IMG/VR virus record: IMGVR_UViG_3300031994_000056
Direction: 5' to 3' (one strand)
DNA from: a virus
Taxonomy: Duplodnaviria > Heunggongvirae > Uroviricota > Caudoviricetes
Length of the DNA stretch: 64,000 nt
The notes under the pieces are model-generated. The model had not been told where the DNA came from. It ran no database searches and saw nothing but the letters and a program-made list of their open reading frames with translations. A program made the translations under genes and the position numbers. Below are positions 17,720 to 28,957 of the stretch, in pieces. Every line of letters begins with the position of its first letter. The stretch's first letter is position 1.

Positions 17720-17881
17720 ATGATAAATACTAATACAAAAGAAATAACATTTACGATGGATACAAAAAATAATAGATATTATTTTGGATGTGGAATATTT
17801 TATATATTTTATACAAGAGTTAATAGAAATAATTTAAATAATTATTCATGTCATTTTATAGGCAAGGAGTTAAAAAAATGA
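17720..17881 (+). CDS. hypothetical small protein (52 aa)
   Basis: Its stop overlaps the next gene's start (ATGA at 17878). Confidence 0.35.
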   Translation: MINTNTKEITFTMDTKNNRYYFGCGIFYIFYTRVNRNNLNNYSCHFIGKELKK

Positions 17882-19419
17882 GTTTAATTATTGCAGGGTT
17901 TCCCGGTATGGGTAAAGATGTTGATATAAATACACCAGTATTAACTTTAAATGGGTGGACAAAAGCAGGTAATATAAAATTAGGTGATTATTTAATTGGA
18001 CAAAATGGTAGACCAACTAAAGTTGTAGGTGTGTATCCACAAGGTGTTTTAGATAAATATGAAATAACTTTCAATGACAATACAAAAACAAATTGTGGTA
18101 TAGATCATTTATGGCAAGTAGCAAAAACAATAAATAAAAAAACAAATGAACCAAGATGGCAAGTTTTAAGTTTAAGAGAAATAATTAAAGATGGTATTGT
18201 TCGCAAATATGGAAATAAAATAAAGAGCAAATGGAGAATACCACTTACACAACCTGTACAATTTGAAGAACAAAAACATATAATAGATTCTTATATTTTA
18301 GGAACGTTAATAGGTAATGGCTATTTATGTGGCAATGTTGTTGAATATATTGGCTCTAATGAAGATAACTTTATAATAGATAAAATAAAAAAACTAATTA
18401 ACAATAAAAATATTTCTTTTGAAAATTGCACAACAAAAAATCAAACTTGCAACCACTATAAATTTATTAGGAAAAATAAACAAAATGAATATAAAAAAGA
18501 AATTAATAGACTTGGATTAAATGTAAAATCTGGACAAAAGTTTATACCAAAAGAATATTTAGTTGATTCTATAGAAAACAGAATAAAATTGTTAAATGGT
18601 TTAATGGATACTGATGGTTCAAGCAATCCAAGAAATAGAATTACATATTCAACAACTTCTAAACAACTTGTAGAAAATATTATAGAACTAGTACAGTCAT
18701 TAGGTGGAATGGCATGGTGTCATGTTTATAATAGAATTGGGAGAGAAAAGGAATACAAAGGAAAAAAGTATATTACAAAATCACTTGAGTACACAATTAG
18801 AATCACATTAAATAATATTTGTCCTTTTTCATTACCGAGAAAAGCTAAAAATTGGAGAAAAACAAAGTTTAAAAGATATTTGATTGATATTAAAAAAATT
18901 AAACCTGCAGAATCTGTTTGTTTTAGAGTTGATAATAAAGATGGACTGTTTTTAATAGAGAACTATATTGTAACACATAATTCTTCTTTATTTAATGAGA
19001 ATAAAGAATATTATTCTGATAGTGATAGTTCAAAATTTAATAAAAAAGATTTTCCAAATAACTATATAAAACATATTAAAAGTATTATGGGAAAAAAACA
19101 ATTAATACTTGTTTCTTCTCATATAGAAGTAAGAAATGCTTTAGTAAAAGAAAACATACCTTTTATTTATGTATTACCTACGCTTGATAGATTAGAAGAA
19201 TTTTGTAGTAATTATGAGAAGCGTGGATCATCAAAAGAATTTATAGAAAAAGTTAGAAAGAATTGGGAACAATGGTTAATGATTTCTGGATATAATACAG
19301 AGTATCCAGTTTACTTTTGTAAGCATGGTTATTTAAAAGATAATTTAGAAGGTATAGTAAAAGAGTATAATAAATTCTATAATGAACAAGTAAATAGAAT
19401 GATTAATTGGCAGGTATAA
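17878..19419 (+). CDS. P-loop NTPase / kinase-like protein interrupted by an intein in the Walker-A motif
   Basis: N-extein MSLIIAGFPGMGK plus C-extein SSLF... rebuilds GxxGxGKS; AAGGAG ribosome-binding site before the ATG at 17878; extein is about 165 aa. Confidence 0.65.
   Translation: MSLIIAGFPGMGKDVDINTPVLTLNGWTKAGNIKLGDYLIGQNGRPTKVVGVYPQGVLDKYEITFNDNTKTNCGIDHLWQVAKTINKKTNEPRWQVLSLREIIKDGIVRKYGNKIKSKWRIPLTQPVQFEEQKHIIDSYILGTLIGNGYLCGNVVEYIGSNEDNFIIDKIKKLINNKNISFENCTTKNQTCNHYKFIRKNKQNEYKKEINRLGLNVKSGQKFIPKEYLVDSIENRIKLLNGLMDTDGSSNPRNRITYSTTSKQLVENIIELVQSLGGMAWCHVYNRIGREKEYKGKKYITKSLEYTIRITLNNICPFSLPRKAKNWRKTKFKRYLIDIKKIKPAESVCFRVDNKDGLFLIENYIVTHNSSLFNENKEYYSDSDSSKFNKKDFPNNYIKHIKSIMGKKQLILVSSHIEVRNALVKENIPFIYVLPTLDRLEEFCSNYEKRGSSKEFIEKVRKNWEQWLMISGYNTEYPVYFCKHGYLKDNLEGIVKEYNKFYNEQVNRMINWQV
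17917..18981 (+). mobile_element. intein (355 aa) with a LAGLIDADG homing-endonuclease domain; class-3-like features
   Basis: Block A DVDINTPVLTLNG (first residue is Asp, not Cys/Ser); LAGLIDADG motifs ILGTLIGNGY and LLNGLMDTDGS; C-terminal IVTHN followed by Ser +1; Trp in DHLW, Cys in SVCF and Thr in VTHN form a WCT triad. Confidence 0.6.
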
Positions 19420-19987: not shown

Positions 19988-20017
19988 TTGACAAAAGTGT
20001 AATAAATATATTATAAT
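19988..20017 (+). promoter_or_regulatory. consensus promoter (TTGACA-18-TATAAT) at the head of the tRNA cluster
   Basis: ttgaca at 19988-19993 and tataat at 20012-20017. Confidence 0.6.
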
Positions 20018-20124
20018 TATTTCTGTAGTATACTATATGCTCACCACCTCCGCCTCTGCTTATATTAAAAGCTTTGATATAAGTTATGCGAAATAGAGGT
20101 TAGTTCTACATCTGGGGATTAAGA

Positions 20125-20284
20125 TGACAGCCTGGGCAATGATAAGTCCTTAGCAAGATGAATTCATCCCTGAAAGTAATCTAGGCTGGGTGGAAATAGA
20201 TTACTTACATGTGAAGCAGTAGCATTCAAGGTAATGCACCCAGCTGCAGATGGTAATATGTTGGTTCGATCCCAACCCTGTCAC
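20125..20284 (+). ncRNA. atypical tRNA-like element (acceptor halves about 160 nt apart; canonical T-arm at the 3' end)
   Basis: T-arm gttgg-ttcgatc-ccaac at 20260-20276 and 3' acceptor strand cctgtca; the only complementary 5' strand (tgacagc) lies at 20125. The insert holds the 12-nt perfect palindrome GATGAATTCATC. Confidence 0.3.
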
Positions 20285-20295
20285 ATGGAAATTAT

Positions 20296-20389
20296 GGAGG
20301 GATGGCAGAGTTGGTTTATTGCAGAGGTTTGCTAAACCTCCGTGGCAGTTGTAAAACTACCACCACTGGTCCGAATCCAGTTCCCTCCG
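20296..20389 (+). tRNA. tRNA-Ser (anticodon GCU), long variable arm
   Basis: Acceptor ggaggga/tccctcc, anticodon loop ttGCTaa, T-arm actgg-tccgaat-ccagt; 94 nt. Confidence 0.65.
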
Positions 20390-20397
20390 TTTTAATG

Positions 20398-20523
20398 TGA
20401 GGAGTAGTATAAATTTAAATGGCAGTACGTGGGTACCTCGTAAAATGTGGGACGCTTCCCTAGGATAGTAGAGGTAGATAAAAGCTCAGCCAAAATCCAG
20501 GTTCGATCCCTGGCTCTTCACCA
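20398..20523 (+). ncRNA. atypical tRNA-like element with a CCA-like 3' end and an insertion of about 50 nt
   Basis: T-arm ccagg-ttcgatc-cctgg plus ctcttca-cca at 20497-20523; the only complementary 5' acceptor strand (tgaggag) is at 20398; D-arm-like gtat...atac. Confidence 0.3.
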
Positions 20524-20615
20524 AATTTGTTCTTTAAAAATAAAAGAGTGGCGGAATAATATGGAGAGAATGTATGCCAGTATAGAGTGAAATTCTCTAT
20601 CTCTTTTATAATAGA

Positions 20616-20686
20616 TTCTTCCTCGTCCAACGGTAGGACATAGGTTTTTGGAACCTACAATTCTGGTTCGAATCCAGGGGAAGAAA
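20616..20686 (+). tRNA. tRNA-Gln (anticodon UUG)
   Basis: Acceptor ttcttcc/ggaagaa (U1:A72), D-arm gtcc-aacggta-ggac, anticodon loop ttTTGga, T-arm tctgg-ttcgaat-ccagg. Confidence 0.7.
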
Positions 20687-20688
20687 GT

Positions 20689-20760
20689 GCTACTGTGGCT
20701 CAATGGTAGAGCGCCTGCTTTGTAAGCAGGATGTTGGAGGTTCAAGTCCTCTCGGTAGCT
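20689..20760 (+). tRNA. tRNA-Thr (anticodon UGU)
   Basis: Acceptor gctactg/cggtagc, D-arm gctc-aatggta-gagc, anticodon loop ttTGTaa, T-loop ttcaagt. Confidence 0.8.
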
Positions 20761-20763
20761 TGT

Positions 20764-20807
20764 TTGCGATATAGCTCAATGGTGGAGCTTTATAATGTGG
20801 AGGTTAT
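20764..20807 (+). pseudogene. truncated tRNA fragment (5' acceptor and D-arm only)
   Basis: gcgatat-a-gctc-aatggt-ggagc reads as a tRNA 5' half, but no T-arm follows before the next tRNA. Confidence 0.3.
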
Positions 20808-20882
20808 TGGGAAGTAGCTCAATTGGTAGAGCGTTCGGCTGTTAACCGAAAGGTTTTGTGGGTTCGAAACCCACCTTCCCAG
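20808..20882 (+). tRNA. tRNA-Asn (anticodon GUU)
   Basis: D-arm gctc-aattggta-gagc, anticodon stem ttcgg/ccgaa with loop ctGTTaa, T-arm gtggg-ttcgaaa-cccac, acceptor cttccca. Confidence 0.7.
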
Positions 20883-20891
20883 TTTTAAATA

Positions 20892-20973
20892 GCAGGTATA
20901 GAGAAACGGCTCTCTCAGTAGGCTCATAACCTACCCTCGTAAGAGTAAGATGGGTTCAACTCCCACACCTGCA
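20892..20973 (+). tRNA. tRNA with a CAU anticodon (Met or Ile-lysidine), atypical long variable region
   Basis: Anticodon arm gtagg-ctCATaa-cctac, T-arm tggg-ttcaact-ccca, acceptor gcaggt/acctgc; a variable region of about 15 nt is unusual for a CAU tRNA. Confidence 0.45.
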
Positions 20974-20979
20974 ACCATT

Positions 20980-21053
20980 CCAGGAGTAGGATAATTAGCT
21001 ATTCCGCTCGCTTTGGGAGCGAGAGACTCCGTGTGCAAGTCACGGCTCCTGGA
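20980..21053 (+). tRNA. tRNA-Pro (anticodon UGG)
   Basis: Acceptor ccaggag/ctcctgg, anticodon stem ctcgc/gcgag with loop ttTGGga, T-arm ccgtg-tgcaagt-cacgg; a T-run follows. Confidence 0.6.
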
Positions 21054-21080
21054 TATTTTTATTTATACTGGAGTTAAAAA

Positions 21081-21353
21081 ATGACAGAAAAAACAATAGA
21101 ACAACAGTTAAAAGAGATTACAAATCTCACAAATTCGAATACAAAATTTACATATATTGAAGAAGATTCATCAGATTCTGCTATAAAATATAAAATTTTA
21201 ACAGATGATTCTCAAGAAAAGGTATTAAAAAAGTTAAAAAGATTTCAGAAATCTCATAAAATACTAAGTATTTCTTTCTCAACCAACACAAAATATTCAA
21301 AAATGTTTGACAGAGAGTATACGGAATATCATTTTTTTATACAATACTTATAG
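21081..21353 (+). CDS. hypothetical protein
   Basis: 90 aa; GGAG ribosome-binding site; last plus-strand gene before the minus-strand block. Confidence 0.45.
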   Translation: MTEKTIEQQLKEITNLTNSNTKFTYIEEDSSDSAIKYKILTDDSQEKVLKKLKRFQKSHKILSISFSTNTKYSKMFDREYTEYHFFIQYL

Positions 21354-21357
21354 TTTT

Positions 21358-21747
21358 TTAAATTCCGTTACCTAAATCTTGATAAAGTTCATCAAAATCT
21401 GCAAGAGATTGTATTGAATTATCAAGCATTATGTCAATATTATTGATACTTGTTTGTAAATTTTGAAGGTTCATATAAGATAAATCACGTACATTATGAT
21501 ATTTTGTCGTAAATTCTCCTATATATTTATCATAAAACTTACCATAAATAATCCAATCTTTTGGAAAAATATTGTAAATTAGTTGATCTATATTATTATA
21601 TTTTACGCCATATACGATAATATCACTAACATCATGTTTATAATATTGTCCAACTATGTGCATACATTTATTAAATGTATTTACATATTCACTAAACTTT
21701 GCGGTATTAAGGAGCATTATAGTCCCTCTCTTGTATGACATACCCAA
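21358..21747 (-). CDS. hypothetical protein
   Basis: 129 aa; last gene of the minus-strand operon. Confidence 0.5.
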   Translation of the reverse strand: MGMSYKRGTIMLLNTAKFSEYVNTFNKCMHIVGQYYKHDVSDIIVYGVKYNNIDQLIYNIFPKDWIIYGKFYDKYIGEFTTKYHNVRDLSYMNLQNLQTSINNIDIMLDNSIQSLADFDELYQDLGNGI

Positions 21748-22121
21748 GCATTGAGGTAATCTTTAGATACGGTTTTTATGGTGGTGGCATATATTACTTC
21801 ACTGGTAAGTTTTTCCAAATCTTTTAAATCTATATCATTTAAATTATAAAGGTCTCCATGGTAGAACACTTGAAGTTTATAATCAAGTTGTTCTGGTTTA
21901 AAGCTATACGATAATGCAATCTTTGCCAGATCAATCGGAAAGAAGTTTATAATATTACAATGGTACTTTCTTATATGATGACGTAATTTAAGTGTATTAG
22001 CTACTGTTATTTCATCTATAATATAGATATTATTATTCATAGGTGCTGGATCTATATATCTACTCCAATCCCAATGTGTCAATGCCATTATACACCTCTC
22101 CAGTGAAAATATTTTGGGCAT
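21717..22121 (-). CDS. hypothetical protein
   Basis: 134 aa; overlaps its neighbours. Confidence 0.5.
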   Translation of the reverse strand: MPKIFSLERCIMALTHWDWSRYIDPAPMNNNIYIIDEITVANTLKLRHHIRKYHCNIINFFPIDLAKIALSYSFKPEQLDYKLQVFYHGDLYNLNDIDLKDLEKLTSEVIYATTIKTVSKDYLNAWVCHTREGL

Positions 22122-22618
22122 GCATCACTAAGTGTTCTACTAGTATCTTTTGCCTGTGCCTGTATTATTTGGTACATAATAATAAACTCATGAAAGCTTA
22201 AATCTTCCAATCTTTTAATTGAATATGTATTAGTTTCTTCTACCTCAATATAACCGTCATAATAATATTTTTGTGTTGTTTTAAAACCAGCAGCCATAAA
22301 TACAGACATATCTCTAAGATCGCTTTCTTGAATTAGTTGTATGAAATACTGTTGTTCATCATTTTTATCAAAGACGAGATCCTCATTCATTTTATTGATT
22401 TCTTTTAGTTCTACTTGTTCGGTTATATTTTTAAACAGATCCAAGACTTTCCAGCATTCCATATTATTTATGAAATATTTATGTTCATTTAGTTTACATT
22501 GTGTAACACGTACAGGTATAAATTTATACATACTATCCGACAAACTGAACTGTATATCTCCAAATTTAGGTATAGTAACTTCTAGCATTTCATATTCCTC
22601 CGTTGCAAAAGCATACAA
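22088..22618 (-). CDS. hypothetical protein
   Basis: 176 aa; ends in RGV. Confidence 0.5.
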   Translation of the reverse strand: MYAFATEEYEMLEVTIPKFGDIQFSLSDSMYKFIPVRVTQCKLNEHKYFINNMECWKVLDLFKNITEQVELKEINKMNEDLVFDKNDEQQYFIQLIQESDLRDMSVFMAAGFKTTQKYYYDGYIEVEETNTYSIKRLEDLSFHEFIIMYQIIQAQAKDTSRTLSDACPKYFHWRGV

Positions 22619-22634
22619 TATTTAGGAATAAATG

Positions 22635-22958
22635 TCAAGTTTTTGCTCCGAATTCTTTTACAAGCCACAAGGCTTTACTATAACCCCAGATATCTCCCAA
22701 TGGTAAATCAAATCCGCTACATCCGTTCCAGTCTTTAAATTCTTTTAGATATTCTGGGACTGTTTTACTCAGTTCCGGGTACTTATCTTGTAGTGCTTTA
22801 AGTTTCTTGGCGAACTTATCGTACTGATAATCAGATATAATATTTGTATTGAGTCGGTAATATATAATGGAATGTACCAACACACACAGACGGAGTCTTT
22901 TGATTCCCTCCATGATTTTCCTTTCATCCTCGGTATATTTACGAATCTTTTCTTTCAT
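22635..22958 (-). CDS. hypothetical protein
   Basis: 107-aa ORF. Confidence 0.5.
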   Translation of the reverse strand: MKEKIRKYTEDERKIMEGIKRLRLCVLVHSIIYYRLNTNIISDYQYDKFAKKLKALQDKYPELSKTVPEYLKEFKDWNGCSGFDLPLGDIWGYSKALWLVKEFGAKT

Positions 22959-22961
22959 TTT

Positions 22962-23186
22962 TTATAATCCACAGATTGCAAGTATAATAAGGTACACACA
23001 TATAAACTTTACGCTGAGCACATCTTTAAGAAGTACAACTGCGCCTGCAAGTGTAAGTATACAAAGCCATCTATACATATTTATTTCCTCCCTGCCCCGT
23101 ACCATATAATCAGAGCCAAACAAATACATCCAAACATAAACCAAATCATACACCCTCCGTTTCTTCTGTAAGTATTTTAAATTCAT
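22962..23186 (-). CDS. small membrane protein
   Basis: 74 aa, two hydrophobic helices; overlaps the upstream gene by 41 nt. Confidence 0.35.
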   Translation of the reverse strand: MNLKYLQKKRRVYDLVYVWMYLFGSDYMVRGREEINMYRWLCILTLAGAVVLLKDVLSVKFICVYLIILAICGL

Positions 23187-23349
23187 CTAAATTCATGGTA
23201 AATTCTGTACCTTCTCCGATTATATAAAGATGCACTTTTTGTTTTTGCATATCATATTTAATTGGCATACACAATACATCTTCTTTAACCAGAAGCTCGG
23301 CAGTTGGAGTCATGCGAATTTGTATAGGTACTTTAACTTTTACAACCAT
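23146..23349 (-). CDS. small array protein ending in EGV
   Basis: 67 aa; member of the minus-strand small-gene array. Confidence 0.5.
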   Translation of the reverse strand: MVVKVKVPIQIRMTPTAELLVKEDVLCMPIKYDMQKQKVHLYIIGEGTEFTMNLDEFKILTEETEGV

Positions 23350-23380
23350 TAGAGTCCTCTAACCGAATCATATGTAAGTT

Positions 23381-23599
23381 TCATACACCCTCCTTAATTT
23401 CTTCGGTAATAAGTTTAAACACTTCGAGTGGAAGTATGAAGCTTTCTCCACCCCCAACGGGTTCAAGATACATATGATTTTCTGTATTCATATCATAGGA
23501 AACCCTATAGAATGTATTTTCGGGGATCATGGCGGTAGCTGTTCCACTATAACTATAACCAAATCCTTTAAAAATCGACGCTTTAAGTCTTACAATCAT
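23381..23599 (-). CDS. small array protein ending in EGV
   Basis: 72 aa; an 11-codon mini-ORF (MKLTYDSVRGL) bridges to the next gene through ATGA and TAATG overlaps. Confidence 0.5.
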   Translation of the reverse strand: MIVRLKASIFKGFGYSYSGTATAMIPENTFYRVSYDMNTENHMYLEPVGGGESFILPLEVFKLITEEIKEGV

Positions 23600-23600
23600 T

Positions 23601-23777
23601 CTAAACTCCTTTAATTAGTTCTTCGGAAAGTGGTGTGATATCTGCGATATATACAAAAAATTCCCGATTATCCAAACATACTTTGCAGTGCCAGCGACCA
23701 TCTTTTGTGGTCCCAAGAACTTCAAAAATCGTTCCTCTAGGTAATGTATATACATATCCGGTTATAACTCTATACAT
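23601..23777 (-). CDS. small array protein ending in KGV (58 aa, absent from the ORF track)
   Basis: MYRVITGYVYTLPRGTIFEVLGTTKDGRWHCKVCLDNREFFVYIADITPLSEELIKGV; its ATG lies 3 nt after the upstream stop. Confidence 0.5.
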   Translation of the reverse strand: MYRVITGYVYTLPRGTIFEVLGTTKDGRWHCKVCLDNREFFVYIADITPLSEELIKGV

Positions 23778-23780
23778 ATT

Positions 23781-24005
23781 CTAAACTCCGCCCTCAACTT
23801 TCTCTGACAGCCTTATTACTTCATCACCCCATAACCATCCAGACTCCTCTGTCTTTAATGATTTTACTTTTATTTGACATATATTCCTATCCAAAATCTT
23901 AATGGTATCTCCTCTTTTTAACCATCCGATATCTACAGTAACCACTCTTAATTGCCCTTTTATGCGCTTACGTTCTCTTTCTATTGCTTTTAAAAGTTCA
24001 TCCAT
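23781..24005 (-). CDS. small array protein ending in GGV
   Basis: 74 aa; 3-nt spacing to its neighbours. Confidence 0.5.
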   Translation of the reverse strand: MDELLKAIERERKRIKGQLRVVTVDIGWLKRGDTIKILDRNICQIKVKSLKTEESGWLWGDEVIRLSEKVEGGV

Positions 24006-24008
24006 ATA

Positions 24009-24230
24009 TTAAACACCCTCTTCTAATATATCCATATAATCTGTAAAATCTTCTGTAGGTATCCTAAATATATCATGTGAATTCATTATATTCTGTATTT
24101 CTATGAAACTGTCAGATATACTTAAAGTTTCATATAAAGTACCCTTGGGTATCTGTACTACGACGATATCTATACCAGTAGGATCTGTACCAATAGGTCT
24201 AAAATAAATACATTTTGTTATACATAACAT
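24009..24230 (-). CDS. small array protein ending in EGV (start moved to the internal ATG)
   Basis: The ORF track begins at TTG 24266, but TTGTATAAT there is the -10 of an internal promoter. GGAGGT and the ATG at 24230 give MLCITKCIYF... Confidence 0.45.
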   Translation of the reverse strand: MLCITKCIYFRPIGTDPTGIDIVVVQIPKGTLYETLSISDSFIEIQNIMNSHDIFRIPTEDFTDYMDILEEGV

Positions 24231-24257
24231 ATATACCGGTTTACCTCCATAAACCGA

Positions 24258-24287
24258 ATTATACAATACTTCCTATCCAAGTGTCAA
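24258..24287 (-). promoter_or_regulatory. internal consensus promoter on the minus strand (TTGACA-18-TATAAT)
   Basis: Minus-strand ttgacacttggataggaagtattgtataat; GGAGGT ribosome-binding site downstream. Confidence 0.5.
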
Positions 24288-24377
24288 TACTTATACATAA
24301 AGTCGTACGACTAAATGTATAAACAAACCATAAATTCTAATGACTAATTGGTTTTAACCCAAGTATGTTTAGGTTCA

Positions 24378-24584
24378 TTACACACCTTCCCAGATTCTAT
24401 GTACATAACTTGGATCTCTAAACTCTTCATAAGAAAGATGTAGCCGATGGTATTCATTTAGCACACTAACCAGGTTCGCCGAATAATTGTCGGATATGTC
24501 AACTCTCATGACGGTACCTTTCGGTATCATATAGCTATCACGAAAACCTCCCATATATAAATTACGTGTAGTTATACAAAGCAT
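24378..24584 (-). CDS. small array protein ending in EGV
   Basis: 68 aa; a 13-codon mini-ORF (MNLNILGLKPISH) overlaps its stop (TAATG). Confidence 0.5.
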   Translation of the reverse strand: MLCITTRNLYMGGFRDSYMIPKGTVMRVDISDNYSANLVSVLNEYHRLHLSYEEFRDPSYVHRIWEGV

Positions 24585-24587
24585 ATT

Positions 24588-24791
24588 TTACACTCCTTTC
24601 CCATTAACAATTGCTTTTCTTATCCCTTTTATATACCTTAATACCTTCTGATAAGCTTCAATTACTTCCTTATCGGTAGTCTGTAACAGTTCCCTTTCTA
24701 TAAATGCCTTTATATCATCACATACAGCTATCTCATCTGTATAAGTATACGGGCTTTCATTATCAAAAAGATCATCATATAATATACTCAT
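24588..24791 (-). CDS. small array protein ending in KGV
   Basis: 67 aa; AAAGGAGTG at its 3' end serves as the ribosome-binding site of the next gene. Confidence 0.5.
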   Translation of the reverse strand: MSILYDDLFDNESPYTYTDEIAVCDDIKAFIERELLQTTDKEVIEAYQKVLRYIKGIRKAIVNGKGV

Positions 24792-24803
24792 ATTACCTCC
24801 TAA

Positions 24804-24893
24804 TTAATCCAACAGTTTAAGTATAAGTATACAAACTACACCAGCTATACAAACCATACAAATACCACCAAATATAGATTCGGCTATTGTCAT
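24804..24893 (-). CDS. 29-aa hydrophobic peptide, first gene of the minus-strand operon
   Basis: TAAGGAGGGG ribosome-binding site then ATG: MTIAESIFGGICMVCIAGVVCILILKLLD. Confidence 0.35.
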   Translation of the reverse strand: MTIAESIFGGICMVCIAGVVCILILKLLD

Positions 24894-24925
24894 ACCTAGC
24901 CCCTCCTTATATATTAACTATCCGA

Positions 24926-24955
24926 ATTATACAATAATCCAAACTAAAATGTCAA
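24926..24955 (-). promoter_or_regulatory. consensus promoter on the minus strand (TTGACA-18-TATAAT) for the divergent small-gene operon
   Basis: Minus-strand ttgacattttagtttggattattgtataat. Confidence 0.6.
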
Positions 24956-24989
24956 GGGAAATTTATTTTCTCGGGATGTAAAAAAGGCA

Positions 24990-25145
24990 GACGGTTTGGG
25001 AAATTCAAAATCCGTACACGTGCTACATAAGTAAACTATCCAGACAGATTGGAAATTTCGAAATCCGTACATGCGTTCTATATAAACTATATGGTTAAAA
25101 AAGGCGTACGAAAGGGAAAAATCAAAAACCAGACACGCGTTCTTA
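24990..25145. repeat. three imperfect direct repeats of about 60 bp (GGGAAATTCAAAATCCGTACACGYG...TAAACTAT)
   Basis: Copies start near 24999, 25050 and 25113, each preceded by AAAAAAGGC(A/G)(G/T)ACG; they sit in the divergent region between the minus-strand promoter and the gene at 25311. Confidence 0.6.
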
Positions 25146-25310
25146 AAGGGGCAATGACCGCTTAAAGAGGGGGGACCTTCCCCCAAGCGTATCTTACACC
25201 GGAAAAACCCTACCTACCTGGGTCATTTACCTAGTATATACTAAGTAATACCTGGTATAGGCGGGTTATTAATAATGGGGTGGCGCCCCTTACCAGCCAA
25301 GGAGGACATC

Positions 25311-25754
25311 ATGTCCAATACAACAACCTTCCAAGTTCTTAAGAACTTGGTGTTCACTGCTGACATTACAGCAGCATCTTTGGAGACTAAAGTTTCCAGA
25401 AAGACAGGTACTTCGTACCAGCAGTTCAGTACGCCTATTTATTTAGGTGGAGTAAGAGCAGGAGACATTACAGCCTTCGTACCTAAAGCTCCAAAATTGG
25501 TACTCAGAGATGGTGAGTATAAACCCGTATTTATACTTGACTATGAGTATAAAGCATGGGTAAGCTTAAAGGAAGAAGACCTCGGAGACTACAAGATGTT
25601 CTACGAAGGTGACCAGAATCAGCACCACGTAAAAGGCTATTCCAAAGGTGGAATAACCATCTGGGCTTATACGGATATCCAGGATAAGAAAGAAGCTGGA
25701 TTGATAAGAGCTCAGATCGTTCTCAGAACCAGAGGCTTTGCAACCGCAAAGTAA
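25311..25754 (+). CDS. hypothetical protein in the GC-richer island
   Basis: AAGGAGG ribosome-binding site then ATG (MSNTTTFQVL...); about 45% GC against about 28% elsewhere; no motif recognised. Confidence 0.5.
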   Translation: MSNTTTFQVLKNLVFTADITAASLETKVSRKTGTSYQQFSTPIYLGGVRAGDITAFVPKAPKLVLRDGEYKPVFILDYEYKAWVSLKEEDLGDYKMFYEGDQNQHHVKGYSKGGITIWAYTDIQDKKEAGLIRAQIVLRTRGFATAK

Positions 25755-25807
25755 GGTAGGAGCACTGACCAAACCCATCGGCTTCGGTGGGTTTGGATGA
25801 GTGCTTT

Positions 25808-25917
25808 GGAACCTGTAGCTCAGTGGCAGAAGCTTGAAGTGCTCCCTGAAATAACGGGATACAACCGTAACACATGTCCAACGGTGACCCTGGTTCGATT
25901 CCAGGCAGGTTCCACCA
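25808..25917 (+). ncRNA. tRNA-like RNA with an encoded CCA and an extra internal stem-loop (about 110 nt)
   Basis: Acceptor ggaacct/aggttcc then a-CCA; D-arm agct-cagtggcaga-agct; T-arm cctgg-ttcgatt-ccagg; no canonical 7-nt anticodon loop; preceded by the 10-bp hairpin aaacccatcg-gctt-cggtgggttt. Confidence 0.4.
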
Positions 25918-25938
25918 AAATCTCAAAAGGAGGTTATT

Positions 25939-26103
25939 ATGAAAAAATTGATAAACCTATTTTTTATAGTAGGTGCAATAATTATTTATGGCTTAATAGT
26001 TGGAGCGTTCTTTCTGGGAAATGCAAGTGAAATACTATTCCTTATGCTCGGTTTCCTGGGCGGAATCTATATCGCACTTTATTTGACTGTAAAATATTTA
26101 TAG
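25939..26103 (+). CDS. small membrane protein (54 aa, absent from the ORF track)
   Basis: AAGGAGG ribosome-binding site; MKKLINLFFIVGAIIIYGLIVGAFFLGNASEILFLMLGFLGGIYIALYLTVKYL. Confidence 0.45.
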   Translation: MKKLINLFFIVGAIIIYGLIVGAFFLGNASEILFLMLGFLGGIYIALYLTVKYL

Positions 26104-26119
26104 GTAGAAATAATAATCA

Positions 26120-26151
26120 CCCGAGAATATTGACATATCCTTGGGTTTTTT
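26120..26151 (+). terminator. possible intrinsic terminator
   Basis: cccgag ... cttggg stem (G-U wobble) with a 14-nt loop, then tttttt. Confidence 0.3.
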
Positions 26152-26464
26152 GGTAAGCTATTTAGAATGATAAGAATGTTTCCAGAGATTCTTCTGCGGA
26201 ACAATCAAGCGTTTACCGCCTGTCCTATAGCTCGTTACTAGCCTAAGAGTAAGATTGTCAACCCCGACTTACGTGAATACATCTTTCTACATTCACCACT
26301 TATCGTATATGGCTCCACGTCTTTCGATTGATTTTTCAATGTTTTTCTGAGTTTGAAATTATTAACTTATCTCAACTAAGTTCCTTTATCAAAGGTGTGA
26401 AACTTAGAAAAGCACGCTGATACAAAGTGTGCAATTATGATATATTTGTCAAGGGAGGTATGTT

Positions 26465-26617
26465 ATGTTTAAAAGGTATATTATATACGCTCGTAGTGAA
26501 GAACGCACAGATTATGTAACGGAGTTCCGCACTCAGGAAAGTGCAGAGAAGTTCATACAAGATAAAGCTCACGAGTTCCAGGGATGTGAGCTTTATTGCG
26601 TTGTGAAGCATTATTAA
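26465..26617 (+). CDS. hypothetical small protein (50 aa)
   Basis: AAGGGAGG ribosome-binding site; MFKRYIIYARSEERTDYVTEFRTQESAEKF... Confidence 0.35.
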   Translation: MFKRYIIYARSEERTDYVTEFRTQESAEKFIQDKAHEFQGCELYCVVKHY

Positions 26618-26623
26618 AGGAGG

Positions 26624-26758
26624 ATGGAAATGATAATAGTATTAAATGTAGTATTCGGAATTTTATTATTTTGTTACTGTCACTTTATTAACGGTCCAGT
26701 AACAAAAGCTCTAAAGGAGGAACTTAAAGCGTTGGAAGCAAAACGTGTTGAAAAGTAA
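26624..26758 (+). CDS. hypothetical small membrane protein (about 44 aa)
   Basis: AAAGGAGG ribosome-binding site; M(EM)IIVLNVVFGILLFCYCHF... Confidence 0.3.
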   Translation: MEMIIVLNVVFGILLFCYCHFINGPVTKALKEELKALEAKRVEK

Positions 26759-26796
26759 ACGCGTTTTGAAAATTTTGAAATCGACTTGCGATTTCT

Positions 26797-26880
26797 TTCT
26801 TGGGAAGGAGGCAGACCCAAGCGTAGCACTTGAGAGTAGTTCACTCTCATCCAAGCCTTAGTTTGCTTGGTGTGTCTGCT
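26797..26880. repeat. large inverted repeat (15-bp stem, 14/15 matched) enclosing two internal hairpins
   Basis: gggaaggaggcagac ... gtctgcttccttccc; internal pairs gagag/ctctc and ccaagc/gcttgg. Confidence 0.55.
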
Positions 26881-26888
26881 TCCTTCCC

Positions 26889-26949
26889 TGTGTATAAGTA
26901 GGAAAGTTATACACAAGTTATTCACAACCTGTGGATAAGCTGTGTATAA
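26889..26949. promoter_or_regulatory. cluster of five DnaA boxes (TTATNCACA) overlapping a candidate promoter for the plus-strand small-gene array
   Basis: tgtgtataa at 26889-26897 (minus), ttatacaca at 26907-26915 (plus), ttattcaca at 26918-26926 (plus), tgtggataa at 26930-26938 (minus, perfect TTATCCACA), tgtgtataa at 26941-26949 (minus). A ttcaca -35 and tataac -10 lie among them. Confidence 0.6.
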
Positions 26950-26995
26950 CTGGATTACGATAGTAAGACTATAACTTAAGGATAGGAGGGATAAT

Positions 26996-27205
26996 ATGCC
27001 AAACATAAATAGAGTAATTGTAGTATGCAAAACATTGCTTAAGTATAAGCTAAAAGGGTTAATAGATGAACATGATGATACCATAATAACCAGTATGTTC
27101 TATCATATGGATTTAGATAGTTTAACTAGGAATGATTGGGAGTATGTAATAGAACAGTTGGTTGCAGAGTGTGTATATTTGGAATTCTGTACATGTTTAA
27201 AATAA
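26996..27205 (+). CDS. hypothetical protein, first gene of the plus-strand array
   Basis: GGAGGG ribosome-binding site; 69 aa. Confidence 0.5.
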   Translation: MPNINRVIVVCKTLLKYKLKGLIDEHDDTIITSMFYHMDLDSLTRNDWEYVIEQLVAECVYLEFCTCLK

Positions 27206-27217
27206 AGGAGGTAACCT

Positions 27218-27400
27218 ATGAATACCTATATGAAGAAAGATTCGGTGATACATTTAGATGATGCTACGATAGTAGTTAGGGAAGGCAAATGTGAAACCTG
27301 TTGTTTTTTCAATGAGTTTTCAACTGATCACTGTACTATTCGTAATAAGTGTAGAGTATCATTAGGGTTGCATTATGAGAGGCTGGAAGGAGGTGTGTGA
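27218..27400 (+). CDS. small Cys-rich array protein (CxxC), ends LEGGV
   Basis: VREGKCETCCFF motif; its stop overlaps the next ATG (GTGTGATG). Confidence 0.55.
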   Translation: MNTYMKKDSVIHLDDATIVVREGKCETCCFFNEFSTDHCTIRNKCRVSLGLHYERLEGGV

Positions 27401-27663
27401 TGATACAAATTGAAGAATGGTATATGTATGGTAAGAAGTACTACACCATTGAATATAACGGTAAAACATATATAGCTAGGAAATCAAATATGCCCTGTAA
27501 AGCTTGTGCATTCGTAAGTAATATATCACCAAGCGGATATTTTACTGATAGAGTGTATTGTAAGCTTCCTAATACACTCCGAACAAAAGAACTTATGTGT
27601 CCGCTTCACGTAGCATTTCCAAACGAGAATAAAGTATTTGTGGAAGTGATAGGAGGTGTGTGA
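27397..27663 (+). CDS. small Cys-rich array protein, ends IGGV
   Basis: PCKACAF motif; ATGA overlap. Confidence 0.55.
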   Translation: MMIQIEEWYMYGKKYYTIEYNGKTYIARKSNMPCKACAFVSNISPSGYFTDRVYCKLPNTLRTKELMCPLHVAFPNENKVFVEVIGGV

Positions 27664-27968
27664 TGGAGGACTTTAGAGAAGCATTTAAGAAGTATATAGA
27701 AGGTGTTGCTACAGAGAAAATAAATAAGATTGCGAGAAAAAGTGCGAAACGTTTTAAACAGAACCAAATACTAGAGCTTGATGGTGTGAAAGTTATGATA
27801 CAAAAAGGAGCTTGTGGGAATGGAGGATGCTACTTTAGTAGGGAAAGAACCAGTAAGATATCCGGGAAATATATAGGCAGAGTTTGTATGGCACGGTTTC
27901 ATTGTTATAAAATACTTAAGGAGCTTCATGGTAAGTATCATTTTATTTGTGTTGAAGGAGGGGTATGA
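27660..27968 (+). CDS. small Cys-rich array protein, ends EGGV
   Basis: IQKGACGNGGCYFS motif. Confidence 0.55.
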   Translation: MMEDFREAFKKYIEGVATEKINKIARKSAKRFKQNQILELDGVKVMIQKGACGNGGCYFSRERTSKISGKYIGRVCMARFHCYKILKELHGKYHFICVEGGV

Positions 27969-28150
27969 TGGCAAAATATAAGATGGGAGATAAAATAACT
28001 TATGGAAAGGCAAGACTTACAGTGGTGAAAGGAAAATGTGAGGATTGCTACTTCTCGACTCCTTATGGTTGCATGTCAGTATTTATTGAAGGCTGTGCAA
28101 GTACACTTGGGTTTGATTTGATATTCATTCCTACAAGAAAGGGGGTATAA
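27965..28150 (+). CDS. small Cys-rich array protein (family VxKGxCxxCYF), paralog 1
   Basis: MMAKYKMGDKITYGKARLTVVKGKCEDCYFS...; 61 aa, ends KGV. Confidence 0.6.
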   Translation: MMAKYKMGDKITYGKARLTVVKGKCEDCYFSTPYGCMSVFIEGCASTLGFDLIFIPTRKGV

Positions 28151-28335
28151 TGATAACAAAATATAAGATAGGTGATAGATTAACTTATGGAAAGACAAGA
28201 CTTATAGTAGTTAAAGGTAGCTGTAAGAATTGCTACTTCTCAGCCCCTCATGGTTGCATGGCAAAGTTTGCTGGAATCTGTGCAAGTACACTTGGGTTTA
28301 ATCTAAAATTTATACCTGTGGGAAAGGGGGTATGA
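28150..28335 (+). CDS. small Cys-rich array protein, paralog 2 (about 66% identical to the previous gene)
   Basis: MITKYKIGDRLTYGKTRLIVVKGSCKNCYFS...; 40 of 61 positions identical by manual alignment. Confidence 0.6.
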   Translation: MITKYKIGDRLTYGKTRLIVVKGSCKNCYFSAPHGCMAKFAGICASTLGFNLKFIPVGKGV

Positions 28336-28336
28336 T

Positions 28337-28531
28337 ATGCCAAGATATAAAGTAGGTGAAAGAATAGTTGTAGGAGCGGTTGAAGCCGTTGTAGTTCGTG
28401 GAAACTGCGAAAGTTGTTTCTTTAGTAGACATATTTTTCTATATAAAACAGAATGTATGTTGGATGAAGAAAGCTGTATAGAAGAAATCGGTTTTGGTAA
28501 CTGCTATAAAGTATTGAAAAAAGGGCTTTAG
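28337..28531 (+). CDS. small Cys-rich array protein, paralog 3
   Basis: MPRYKVGERIVVGAVEAVVVRGNCESCFFS... Confidence 0.55.
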   Translation: MPRYKVGERIVVGAVEAVVVRGNCESCFFSRHIFLYKTECMLDEESCIEEIGFGNCYKVLKKGL

Positions 28532-28576
28532 GGTTGGTCGCCTAAATGTACCTAATATATAGACCTGGAGGATGTT

Positions 28577-28948: not shown

Positions 28949-28957
28949 GGAGGTACC

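What the first reader, a model, noticed from the sequence alone, without database searches (positions are those of the whole stretch)
20125..20523. Two tRNA-like elements in the tRNA cluster whose acceptor halves are 125-160 nt apart
Two canonical T-arm + 3'-acceptor (+CCA-like) ends, at about 20260-20284 and about 20497-20523, have no complementary 5' acceptor strand at tRNA distance. The matching 7-mers (tgacagc pairing with cctgtca; tgaggag pairing with ctcttca, one G-U) lie 160 and 126 nt upstream. Finding two such 7-mer matches by chance in a few hundred nt is unlikely. These may be tRNAs carrying insertions (intron-like or a mobile mini-element), split or pseudo-tRNAs, or other tRNA-like RNAs. 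One insert contains the perfect 12-nt palindrome GATGAATTCATC (20157-20168). Together with the element at 25808, this genome seems to hold several tRNA-like genes with large internal insertions.
Basis: seen in the sequence. Interest (0 to 1): 0.55.

Follow-up and report, generated by a model that had tools for sequence, protein, structure and literature searches.

The report
Two tRNA-shaped non-coding phage RNAs

Summary
The window is part of a ~161-kb, 27% GC phage contig. Both T-arm/3'-strand ends exist, but the two elements differ.

It has 6 of 7 pairs, expected by chance (P about 0.8), and fails across 14 homologs (56% paired, no compensatory change). The 3' strand instead pairs locally (20208-16 with 20279-87; 7 of 9 pairs covary). 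This closes an ~80-nt tRNA-like domain with D arm, T arm and an 8-nt palindromic "anticodon" loop, but no CCA. That domain ends a ~250-nt RNA (20041-20290) that follows a consensus sigma-70 promoter. The "tgacagc" core pairs with 20183-88 inside a pseudoknot.

It has an 8-bp acceptor, and a diverged copy shows compensatory changes. D and T arms are intact. About 49 structured bases replace the anticodon loop.

Neither element matches tRNA, tmRNA, Y RNA, an intron or any other Rfam 15 family. The closest analogue is T4 species 1 RNA, without homology.

Most likely both are stable, non-decoding tRNA mimics cut from the tRNA operon transcript by host tRNA-processing enzymes. Their function is unknown.

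The parts
19988..20017 (+). Sigma-70-type promoter of the RNA/tRNA operon (TTGACA, 18 nt, TATAAT)
   Evidence: A 12/12 consensus match in the scan. TTGACA plus TATAAT or TATACT is kept upstream of every homolog. Use in vivo is inferred.
20041..20290 (+). Element-1 RNA, full conserved extent (~250 nt): a 5' pseudoknotted domain plus a 3' tRNA-like domain
   Evidence: nhmmer finds it in 20 loci, giving 14 distinct sequences (alignment A4). The structure test gives 98.6% of cells paired, 25 pairs with changes on both sides, and 0 of 500 shuffles as good. No ORF of 40 aa or more on either strand. No Rfam family. The exact 5' end is not mapped.
20046..20100 (+). 5' long hairpin. P1 is ACCUC 20046-50 with GAGGU 20096-100. 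P1b is 20051-53 with 20088-90. P2 is 20057-69 with 20073-86. The apical sequence UAAAAGCUUUG is nearly invariant (one position varies U/C)
   Evidence: P1b and P2 carry 1 and 3 pairs with changes on both sides (helices 1 and 2). P1 was read by eye: ACCUC/GAGGU in the short type against ACUCCC/GGGAGU in the long type.
20109..20126 (+). P3 hairpin (CAUCU / AGAUG)
   Evidence: 2 of 5 pairs have changes on both sides (helix 3).
20128..20133 (+). Its real partner is AGGCUG at 20183-20188
   Evidence: 100% paired in 14 sequences and 3 of 6 pairs covary: CAGCCU/AGGCUG, CAGUCU/AGACUG, CACCCC/GGGGUG (helix 4).
20134..20170 (+). Internal arm closed by GGG 20134-36 with CCC 20168-70.
   Evidence: GGG/CCC is invariant (helix 5). 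The hairpin loop varies among relatives. The inner pairing is not well resolved.
20174..20206 (+). Pseudoknot hairpin. AAGUAAUCU 20174-82 pairs with AGAUUACUU 20198-206. Its loop, 20183-97, pairs outward: 20183-88 with 20128-33, and probably GGUG 20189-92 with the 5'-terminal CACC 20042-45
   Evidence: 9 bp, 100% paired, 1 covarying pair (C-G to U-A in 5 sequences) (helix 6). The CACC/GGUG pairing rests on near-invariant bases only (one consistent A-to-G change), so it is inferred.
20208..20287 (+). tRNA-like 3' domain of element 1. Terminal (acceptor-like) stem 20208-16 with 20279-87, then G20219-C20277. D arm 20222-37. Anticodon-like arm 20239-54. T arm 20260-76. GGAA follows instead of NCCA
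   Evidence: Pairs with changes on both sides: terminal stem 7 of 10, T stem 3 of 5, anticodon-like stem 3 of 4. The D stem is invariant. Rfam tRNA scores 18.7 bits here and 24.8 bits in L010, against a cut-off of 29. ARAGORN calls the homologous domain 'tRNA-???' with a 2-base anticodon in L030 and L031.
20244..20249 (+). Self-complementary hexamer CUGCAG in the 8-nt anticodon-like loop
   Evidence: CUGCAG in 12 sequences and UGGCCA in 2 (L010, L018). Two double changes keep the self-complementarity (helix 10, 87). This is probably a single evolutionary event.
20295..20390 (+). Canonical tRNA-Ser(GCU) between the two elements
   Evidence: ARAGORN; Rfam tRNA 50.3 bits.
20397..20523 (+). Element-2 RNA, a tRNA-shaped RNA of ~127 nt. 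Acceptor 20397-404 with 20514-21 (8 bp). D arm 20407-28. Anticodon-stem equivalent UGGGU 20430-34 with GCUCA 20484-88. A 49-nt structured insert at 20435-83. Variable region 20489-96. T arm 20497-513. CCA 20521-23
   Evidence: Three copies only: window, L013 and L024. The consensus fold has changes on both sides at 2 acceptor pairs, 1 T-stem pair and 1 inner-stem pair. D stem GUAU/GUAC against GUGU/ACAC, read by eye. It starts 7 nt after tRNA-Ser ends.

Best explanation
The interval holds two different conserved, non-decoding, tRNA-derived structural RNAs that are genes of the phage's tRNA operon.

Element 1 is the 3' domain of a ~250-nt RNA (window ~20041-20290).
- It is the first gene after a consensus sigma-70 promoter.
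- Its 5' ~165 nt fold into a long hairpin plus a compact pseudoknot.
- That pseudoknot abuts an ~80-nt tRNA-like domain, separated by one base. The domain has an intact D-loop/T-loop elbow, a 9-10-bp bulged acceptor-like stem without CCA, and an 8-nt self-complementary loop in place of an anticodon loop.

Element 2 (20397-20523) is a free-standing tRNA-shaped RNA.
- It has an 8-bp acceptor stem, D arm and T arm.
- A 5-bp anticodon-stem equivalent leads into a 49-nt structured insertion instead of an anticodon loop.

Proposed mechanism; these steps are inferred, not shown.
- Both RNAs are transcribed with the tRNAs.
- Host tRNA-processing enzymes cut them out: RNase P at the 5' end of element 2 and of the tRNA that follows each element, then 3' trimming.
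- This works because they keep the acceptor/T-arm/elbow 'top half' that those enzymes recognise.
- They then accumulate as stable RNAs that act as tRNA mimics, not as decoders. This is the behaviour known for T4 species 1 and 2 RNAs.
- Which tRNA-binding partner they engage is unknown.
For: Shown.
- Conservation of element 1 in 14 distinct sequences from a clade of related phage contigs.
- Covariation-supported helices, including the pseudoknot: 98.6% paired, 25 pairs changed on both sides, 0 of 500 shuffles, slid controls 34-41% paired.
- Conserved elbow nucleotides in the alignments: GG in the D loop, UUCRAU in the T loop, and an invariant G-C pair closing the T loop.
- A conserved consensus promoter upstream.
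- No ORF in the region.
- In 11 of the 14 variants a tRNA starts a few bases after the conserved GGAA tail, 3-5 nt in the ten with an ARAGORN call.
- Element 2 starts 7 nt after tRNA-Ser ends.
- Compensatory changes in the acceptor, T, D and inner stems of element 2.
- No match to any Rfam 15 family.

Analogy. T4 rnaC and rnaD are annotated small stable RNAs next to tRNA-Arg in the T4 tRNA cluster. rnaC ends in a T arm plus a 3' strand.
Against: - There is no expression or end-mapping data, so processing and stability are inferred from anatomy and from the T4 precedent.
- Element 1's acceptor-like stem is longer than 7 bp, is bulged and lacks CCA, so RNase P or RNase Z may not treat it as a tRNA.
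- In L010, L018 and L028 no tRNA follows element 1, so its 3' end there must form another way.
- Element 2 rests on three sequences, two of them nearly identical.
- Folding energies are not better than shuffles (z about -1).
Confidence: 0.7

Rival explanations
1. One reading: both elements are tRNA genes interrupted by large insertions (an intron or a mobile mini-element). The insertions are removed to give functional tRNAs of 75-90 nt.
For: Element 2 has a complete acceptor, D arm, T arm and 5-bp anticodon-stem equivalent around a 49-nt insert. The window-only MFE fold pairs tgacagc with cctgtca in element 1.
Against: Element 1: the pairing is 56.5% kept, with no compensatory change in 14 homologs. 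Both strands have other, covarying partners.

Element 2: the insert is itself conserved and structured. No 7-nt anticodon loop remains on removing it. It is far below the size of self-splicing group I introns, and no intron family was hit. From general knowledge, bacteria lack the archaeal/eukaryal splicing endonuclease pathway.
Confidence: 0.05
2. Element 1 is not a trans-acting RNA. It is a cis-acting leader of the operon. The structured 5' region and tRNA-like module would serve only as a processing, stability or transcription-control signal for the downstream tRNAs or genes.
For: It always sits directly after the promoter and before the first downstream gene. That gene is a tRNA in 11 of the 14 variants. 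In L010 and L028 a Shine-Dalgarno sequence and ORF follow; in L018 the next ORF lies about 200 nt on. tRNA-like modules are known to act as RNase P-dependent end-forming signals, as in MALAT1-mascRNA and plant mitochondrial t-elements (general knowledge).
Against: The downstream gene differs among relatives (tRNA-Ser, tRNA-Pro, unrelated ORFs) while the RNA stays the same. That fits an independent gene better than a gene-specific regulator. A 250-nt double-pseudoknot fold is more than an end-forming signal needs.
Confidence: 0.15
3. The elements are decaying pseudo-tRNAs: unexpressed debris of tRNA-cluster rearrangement.
For: The cluster does contain debris, namely a truncated tRNA 5' half at 20764-20806. 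Element 2 occurs in only 3 loci.
Against: Many compensatory changes preserve the helices in element 1 and several do so in element 2. T loops and D-loop GG are invariant or nearly so. Element 1 is present in every locus fetched through the downstream anchor protein or the element-1 pattern that contains this junction.
Confidence: 0.05
4. Element 2 is a miniature tmRNA-like or chargeable RNA. One version has a tag-like mini-ORF (AUG UGG GAC GCU ...). The other has histidine identity through G-1:C73.
For: G20397-C20521 gives an 8-bp acceptor like tRNA-His in all 3 copies. A short ORF (MWDA...) starts in the conserved GUAAAAUGUGGGA.
Against: - ARAGORN finds no tmRNA and Rfam gives no tmRNA hit.
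- G3-U70 is absent in the window copy.
- The mini-ORF differs in length and ending among the three copies (7, 7 and 4 codons) and has no tmRNA-type tag end.
- After C73 comes CAA, not CCA.
- Charging cannot be tested in silico.
Confidence: 0.05

Closest known systems
Bacteriophage T4 species 1 and species 2 RNAs (rnaC, 139 nt; rnaD, 119 nt)
   Same: They are small stable non-tRNA RNAs encoded inside a phage tRNA gene cluster, packed head-to-tail with tRNAs. rnaC ends with a canonical T arm (CCGGG-UUCGAAU-CCCGG) followed by a 3' strand, with its other arms replaced by long hairpins. Sizes are similar to element 2. From my own knowledge, their function is still unknown and they mature through the tRNA-processing pathway.
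   Different: No sequence or profile similarity: nhmmer finds nothing and the element-2 covariance model gives 16 bits, E = 0.4, on rnaC. rnaC has no D arm after its 5' strand. Element 1 has an extra 165-nt pseudoknotted 5' domain with no counterpart in T4.
Canonical and non-canonical tRNAs (RF00005; tRNA-His and tRNA-Sec with 8-bp acceptor stems)
   Same: D arm with GG, T arm with UUCRAU, coaxial acceptor/T stack, and position within a tRNA operon. Element 2 has an 8 + 5 bp acceptor/T branch like tRNA-His (G-1:C73) or bacterial tRNA-Sec.
   Different: Neither element has a 7-nt anticodon loop. Element 1 has a bulged 9-10-bp stem and GGAA instead of NCCA. Both score below the Rfam tRNA cut-off and ARAGORN does not call them in the window.
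tRNA-like modules fused to other RNAs (MALAT1-mascRNA; murine gammaherpesvirus 68 tRNA-miRNA transcripts; plant mitochondrial t-elements)
   Same: A tRNA-like module is covalently joined to a different structured RNA. This suggests use of RNase P or RNase Z as the end-forming machinery (general knowledge).
   Different: Those are eukaryotic or eukaryotic-virus systems. In element 1 the pseudoknot helix abuts the acceptor-like stem with a single base between them. That suggests one rigid unit, not two parts meant to be cut apart.
Bacterial Y RNA YrlA (RF02553) and the tmRNA tRNA-like domain
   Same: Both are non-decoding bacterial or phage RNAs that keep a tRNA elbow and replace the anticodon arm with another module.
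   Different: YrlA is circularly permuted (T arm before D arm, ends in the Ro-binding stem) and travels with Rsr/Ro60. Here the order is normal, and no TROVE protein appeared among the 30 larger ORFs scanned against Pfam. Element 1 lacks tmRNA features altogether; element 2 has only a short, poorly conserved ORF and an 8-bp acceptor. The only Rfam YrlA hit (19 bits, cut-off 69) lies over ordinary tRNAs.
ROOL and GOLLD ornate RNAs of phage tRNA islands
   Same: They are structured, pseudoknotted non-coding RNAs of unknown function, encoded by phages near tRNA islands. ROOL was first found in rumen samples. Both classes build homo-oligomers partly through kissing loops (PMC12286853).
   Different: They are 580-800+ nt with unrelated folds, and no Rfam hit to either was found. 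Oligomerisation of element 1 is only a hypothesis based on its palindromic loop.

Membership tests
Canonical tRNA (Rfam RF00005 / ARAGORN) | Score at or above the family cut-off, or a tRNA-finder call | tested here: not met
   Element 1 scores 18.7 bits in the window and 24.8 bits in L010, against a cut-off of 29. Element 2 has no hit at E up to 10. ARAGORN makes no call in the window. It calls 'tRNA-???' with a 2-base anticodon in L030 and L031.
Canonical tRNA (Rfam RF00005 / ARAGORN) | 7-nt anticodon loop on a 5-bp stem | tested here: not met
   Element 1 has a 4-bp stem with an 8-nt loop (5 bp and 6 nt in L030 and L031). Element 2 has a 5-bp stem opening into a 49-nt structured insert.
Canonical tRNA (Rfam RF00005 / ARAGORN) | 7-bp acceptor stem followed by discriminator and CCA (encoded or addable) | tested here: not met
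   Element 1 has a 9-bp stem, a 2-nt bulge and one G-C pair, followed by GGAA. Element 2 has 8 bp followed by CAA, or read the other way 7 bp followed directly by CCA.
Canonical tRNA (Rfam RF00005 / ARAGORN) | D-loop/T-loop elbow nucleotides (G18 G19, U54 U55 C56, A58, G53-C61) | tested here: met
   GG in the D loop and UUC in the T loop are invariant, the rest of the T loop (RAU) varies at one position, and the closing G-C pair is invariant in 14 element-1 sequences and in the 3 element-2 sequences.
Intron-containing tRNA (bacterial group I intron in the anticodon loop) | A recognisable self-splicing intron, typically 200 nt or more, interrupting an otherwise complete anticodon loop | tested here: not met
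   No intron family was hit at E up to 10. The element-2 insert is 49 nt. Element 1's long-range pairing is refuted.
tmRNA | tRNA-Ala-like acceptor (G3-U70) whose 5' and 3' ends enclose pseudoknots and a tag reading frame | tested here: not met
   ARAGORN finds no tmRNA and Rfam gives no hit. The window element 2 has A3-U70. The mini-ORF is not conserved in length or ending.
Y RNA-like YrlA (RF02553) | Permuted tRNA-like domain on a Ro-binding stem, usually with an rsr gene nearby | tested here: not met
   The only YrlA hit (19.2 bits, cut-off 69) lies on ordinary tRNAs at 20708-20869. Arm order here is the normal tRNA order. No TROVE/Ro60 domain appeared among 30 larger ORFs of the window; the 7 larger ORFs beyond 56 kb had no Pfam scan.
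T4 species 1 / species 2 RNA (rnaC, rnaD) | Sequence or profile homology to the T4 genes | tested here: not met
   nhmmer with the element-1 profile and with element 2 finds nothing in the T4 tRNA region. The element-2 covariance model gives 16.2 bits, E = 0.41, a generic T-arm match.
T4 species 1 / species 2 RNA (rnaC, rnaD) | Non-tRNA gene embedded in a phage tRNA cluster, with a tRNA-like T arm and 3' strand at its end | tested here: met
   for this window; for T4 rnaC.
T4 species 1 / species 2 RNA (rnaC, rnaD) | Accumulates as a stable processed RNA during infection | not testable with these tools
   This needs RNA from infected cells or metatranscriptomes.
ROOL / GOLLD | Match to the Rfam covariance models | tested here: not met
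   No hit at gathering threshold over the whole window, nor at E up to 10 over the cluster.

The most novel reading that the evidence does not exclude
Element 1 defines a new class of phage RNA built on a tRNA scaffold. Two copies would join head-to-head through the self-complementary 6-nt 'anticodon' loop (CUGCAG or UGGCCA), as in the HIV-1 dimerisation site or the kissing loops of ROOL and GOLLD. The symmetric particle would display two tRNA elbows, each on a rigid rod made of the T arm, acceptor-like stem and pseudoknot. It would act in trans as a decoy or inhibitor for a host tRNA-binding factor, such as a tRNA-targeting defence nuclease, RNase P or a T-box leader.
Probability: 0.12. Interest if true: 0.8.

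Novelty: new variant of a known kind. Interest (0 to 1): 0.6.

Why it matters
Phage tRNA clusters are usually annotated as lists of tRNAs, and what lies between the tRNAs is ignored. This case shows a conserved 250-nt pseudoknotted RNA with a tRNA-like tail, a second tRNA-shaped RNA without an anticodon, and at least one further conserved non-coding element. All sit in the tRNA island of a ~160-kb phage clade, and none is in Rfam 15.

Phage tRNAs have recently been shown to counter tRNA-cleaving host defences (titles and abstracts of PMC11555353 and PMC10802454, seen). Non-decoding tRNA mimics in the same operons are therefore obvious candidates for related roles. They also offer a new comparative handle on the 50-year-old question of what T4 species 1 and 2 RNAs do.

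The family has a strong covariation signal and a small size, which make it tractable for structure determination and for testing RNase P/RNase Z substrate rules on extended, bulged acceptor stems.

Tried and rejected
Rejected by chance expectation and by comparative counts.
- **Known RNA families.** Rfam 15 was searched at E up to 10 over the cluster, over L010 and over L024, and at gathering threshold over the whole window. Only ordinary tRNAs were found.
- **tmRNA, YrlA, group I intron, ROOL/GOLLD, RNase P RNA.** No hits. A short resemblance of CCCUGAAAGUAAU to the RNase P CR-I motif (GAGGAAAGUCC) was considered. I dropped it because the order of motifs is wrong and no RNase P model hits.
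- **Close phage relatives in GenBank phages (INPHARED).** Only generic tRNA matches.
- **IMG/VR.** The protein-based scan and three specific DNA patterns found nothing. A looser pattern gave 17 matches there and 92 in GTDB genomes. All are chance matches by nhmmer. The host therefore remains unknown.
- **Identical-protein look-ups.** They returned only 100% identical copies of the cluster, which are useless for covariation. Relatives came from homologs of two neighbouring proteins and from one metagenome pattern scan.
- **AAGCUU motif.** I considered that the recurring AAGCUU in three elements marks kissing loops. In element 1 it is more simply the apex of an ordinary hairpin (A-U pairs around an AGC triloop), so I did not pursue it.
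- **Anticodon reading of the element-1 loop.** CU-GCA-GA fits the Y-U-NNN-R-N pattern, but the UGGCCA variant does not. Rejected.
- **Protein context.** Pfam and PHROG scans of the larger ORFs show DNA-metabolism and unknown genes. No RNA ligase, Ro60, CCA-adding enzyme or other obvious RNA partner was found.
Full report
**Setting**

The window is part of a 161,575-bp contig (ENA ERZ27256871 k141_305185). It has about 27% GC and carries phage-type genes (Pfam):
- dUTPase and ThyX;
- an intein-bearing ATPase that matches phage terminase, primase and helicase-loader families;
- homing endonucleases;
- a DnaB-type helicase.

ARAGORN finds six tRNAs at 20295-21054: Ser, Gln, Thr, Asn, Met and Pro. 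The flagged interval, 20125-20523, lies at the head of this cluster. It follows a perfect sigma-70 consensus promoter at 19988-20017, TTGACA-18-TATAAT. No ORF of 40 aa or more lies on either strand between 19984 and 20447.

**Checking the observation**

No tRNA finder or Rfam model accepts either as a tRNA.

The two proposed long-range pairings are not equally good.
- Element 1: tgacagc with cctgtca has 6 of 7 pairs. A match of that quality appears in 82% of shuffled 300-nt upstream regions.
- Element 2: the 7/7 match, with one G-U, has a chance probability of 0.17. With the additional G20397-C20521 pair (8/8) it is 0.04.

Sequence statistics alone therefore decide nothing, and I turned to relatives.

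**Finding relatives**

- GenBank phages and IMG/VR contain nothing close.
- Look-ups of identical proteins returned only 100% identical copies of the cluster.
- Homologs of the upstream 523-aa protein and of the conserved 119-aa protein just downstream on the opposite strand led to related contigs of 7-161 kb.
- One pattern scan of JGI metagenomes, using an invariant core of element 1, added nine loci.
- A looser pattern gave 92 GTDB genome matches and 17 IMG/VR matches. All are chance matches by nhmmer.

Several record names (XIEF21, TONG22) suggest ruminant gut samples. This is inference from the names only.

**Element 1**

nhmmer finds the element in 20 loci, giving 14 distinct sequences. 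It starts a few bases after the promoter (window 20041) and ends at 20290 (alignments A3 and A4).

I counted a structure derived from RNAalifold and my own helix scan on A4.

| Measure | Result |
|---|---|
| Cells paired | 98.6% |
| Pairs changed on both sides | 25 of 67 |
| Shuffles reaching this covariation | 0 of 500 |
| Cells paired when partners are slid by 1-3 columns | 34-41% |

The helices, in window coordinates:

| Helix | Window coordinates | Support |
|---|---|---|
| 5' long hairpin, P1/P1b/P2 | 20046-20100 | P1b and P2 covary; P1 read by eye |
| P3 hairpin | 20109-20126 | 2 covarying pairs |
| P4, CAGCCU with AGGCUG | 20128-33 with 20183-88 | 3 covarying pairs |
| GGG/CCC-closed arm | 20134-70 | invariant |
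| Pseudoknot helix | 20174-82 with 20198-206 | 9 bp, 1 covarying pair |
| Terminal stem | 20208-16 with 20279-87 | 7 covarying pairs (helix 7, incl. G20219-C20277) |
| D stem | 20222-26 with 20233-37 | invariant |
| Anticodon-like stem | 20239-42 with 20251-54 | 3 covarying pairs |
| T stem | 20260-64 with 20272-76 | 3 covarying pairs |

Its partner lies in the loop of the 20174-206 hairpin, so this is a pseudoknot. The rest of that loop (GGUG, 20189-92) can pair with the 5'-terminal CACC (20042-45). That pairing rests on near-invariant bases only and is inferred.

The UGACAG side stays constant while the 3' strand changes freely: CCUGUCA, CUCUUAU, CUCAUAU, CCUGCAU, CCAACAU.

Its energy is no better than shuffles (z about -1).

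**The 3' domain of element 1**

The last ~80 nt (20208-20287) are clearly derived from a tRNA.
- The D arm has GG in its loop.
- There is a 5-nt variable loop.
- The T arm has the UUCRAU loop and an invariant closing G-C pair.
- Rfam's tRNA model aligns it end to end at 24.8 bits in L010, against a cut-off of 29.
- ARAGORN calls it "tRNA-???" with a 2-base anticodon in L030 and L031.

It departs from a tRNA in three conserved ways.
- The acceptor-like stem is 9 bp, a 2-nt bulge and one G-C pair.
- It is followed by GGAA, not NCCA.
- The anticodon-like arm is 4 bp with an 8-nt loop (5 bp with a 6-nt loop in two sequences).

The six central loop bases are always self-complementary: CUGCAG in 12 sequences and UGGCCA in 2. 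Two double changes keep the palindrome (helix 10, 87). This is probably one evolutionary event, for which the chance of landing on a palindrome is 1 in 64. It is suggestive only.

The pseudoknot helix ends one base before the terminal stem begins. The T arm, acceptor-like stem and pseudoknot helix could therefore stack into one rod; this is inference.

In 11 of the 14 variants a canonical tRNA starts a few bases after the GGAA tail, 3-5 nt in the ten with an ARAGORN call. In L010 and L028 an ORF with a Shine-Dalgarno sequence follows; L018 has no tRNA there, and its next ORF lies about 200 nt on.

**Element 2**

Only three copies exist in the data held: the window, L013 (a near relative) and the diverged L024.

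The consensus fold keeps the following.
- An 8-bp acceptor stem, 20397-404 with 20514-21. Pairs 1-72 (U-A to C-G) and 2-71 (G-C to U-G) change on both sides.
- The T stem, with C-G to U-A at one pair.
- A 5-bp stem in the place of the anticodon stem: UGGGU 20430-34 with GCUCA 20484-88. It is invariant.
- An inner stem, ACCUC 20435-39 with GAGGU 20471-75, with C-G to U-A at one pair.

By eye the D stem also covaries: GUAU/GUAC against GUGU/ACAC.

So element 2 is a complete cloverleaf, except that a 49-nt structured, partly invariant insert (GUAAAAUGUGGGAYGC...) sits where the 7-nt anticodon loop should be.

The 3' end reads CUCUUCA-CCA-A. This can be read two ways.
- Seven pairs followed directly by CCA.
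- Eight pairs with G-1:C73, the tRNA-His-like arrangement, followed by CAA.

I cannot decide between the two. A short ORF (MWDA...) in the insert is not conserved in length or ending. There is no tmRNA signature.

**What these RNAs most likely are and do**

Both RNAs keep exactly the "top half" of a tRNA, meaning the acceptor/T-arm stack and the elbow. From established knowledge, this is what RNase P, RNase Z and the CCA-adding enzyme recognise. Both have lost a decoding anticodon loop. Both are packed into the operon at tRNA-like spacing.

The best-supported reading is as follows.
- They are stable, non-decoding tRNA mimics.
- They are released from the polycistronic transcript by the host tRNA-processing machinery.
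- Element 1 carries an additional pseudoknotted domain.

The structure and conservation are shown. Transcription, processing and stability are inferred. The trans-acting function is unknown.

Possible roles are a decoy for tRNA-binding host factors and dimer formation through the palindromic loop. Both are hypotheses, which I rate at roughly 0.1-0.3.

**Comparison with known systems**

The closest analogue is the pair of T4 small stable RNAs, species 1 (rnaC) and species 2 (rnaD). They lie next to tRNA-Arg in the T4 tRNA cluster, and rnaC ends in a T arm plus a 3' strand. There is no detectable homology.

| Compared with | Outcome |
|---|---|
| YrlA Y RNA | Defining tests fail (no Ro60 among the 30 ORFs scanned) |
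| tmRNA | No hit |
| Group I intron-containing tRNA | No hit; insert too short |
| ROOL / GOLLD | No hit. They are relevant only as other structured RNAs of phage tRNA islands that oligomerise through kissing loops (PMC12286853) |

A large catalogue of candidate phage structured RNAs was built from IMG/VR (PMC10690425). This phage clade appears to be absent from IMG/VR.

**Verdict**

- What is really there is more interesting than two odd tRNAs. It is a previously uncatalogued, covariation-supported 250-nt RNA family with a tRNA-like 3' domain, plus a second anticodon-less tRNA-shaped RNA.
- I class it as a new variant of a known kind, namely tRNA-like stable RNAs of phage tRNA operons. Interest is about 0.6.

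Noticed in passing
window 20546-20612; long forms at L024 3065-3300(-), L030 4460-4725(-), L031 4525-4790(-), L025 7275-7525(-), L028 1610-1860(-): A third conserved non-coding element sits directly upstream of tRNA-Gln(UUG). The window and L013 carry a ~70-nt short form (AAAAGAGUGGCGGAAUAA...GAGUGAAAUUCUCUAUCUCUUUU). Other relatives carry a ~240-nt form with about 170 extra bases inserted after GGAAUAAGACGC. There is no Rfam hit. It ends in a TAnnAT box that could be an internal promoter.
   Followed up: partly
It has an 8-bp acceptor stem (GGAACCUG/CAGGUUCC) followed by ACCA, a D arm, a 4-bp stem with a 9-nt loop (UGAAAUAAC), a long extra arm and a canonical T arm. It is conserved in L013 (nhmmer E = 1e-52). 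The element-2 model matches it only weakly (17.7 and 23.1 bits).
   Followed up: partly
window 20764-20806: A truncated 5' half of a tRNA (acceptor strand, D arm and part of an anticodon arm) lies between tRNA-Thr and tRNA-Asn. It is absent at the same junction in L013. It looks like real debris of cluster rearrangement.
   Followed up: no
window 20891-20977 and 20979-21054: ARAGORN calls an 87-nt tRNA-Met(CAU) with a long extra arm and encoded ACCA, and a tRNA-Pro. Neither reaches Rfam's tRNA gathering score. The long-arm CAU tRNA recurs in relatives at 84-87 nt. It may be a non-canonical tRNA.
   Followed up: no
L016 5925-6419, L028 ~1880-2340, L019 5377-6534: Mobile genes are inserted inside or beside the tRNA/RNA cluster in relatives. 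L016 has an HNH endonuclease ORF between tRNAs, reminiscent of segB in the T4 cluster. L028 has an ORF directly after element 1. L019 has an IS605-type TnpB (OrfB_IS605, Cas12f1-like_TNB).
   Followed up: no
window 17848-19419: The 523-aa protein upstream of the cluster carries intein/homing-endonuclease signatures (Hom_end, LAGLIDADG_3). Most database matches beyond the five closest are to the intein part of unrelated helicases and ATPases.
   Followed up: no
window ~20000-30000: GC content rises from ~0.25 to 0.34-0.37. GC skew turns negative at 22-26 kb, where genes run on the minus strand. A ~330-nt stretch at 26130-26465 follows a TTGACA box. It has only short ORFs on either strand (58 aa at most, from 26435) and no Rfam hit.
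   Followed up: no
alignment A4 (14 loci): The 5' domain type (short or long, differing by a 12-nt hairpin at A4 columns 61-72) and the tRNA-like domain type are combined differently in different contigs. For example, L028 has the short 5' type but the 3' strand of L016 and L024. This suggests recombination between variants of the RNA gene.
   Followed up: no
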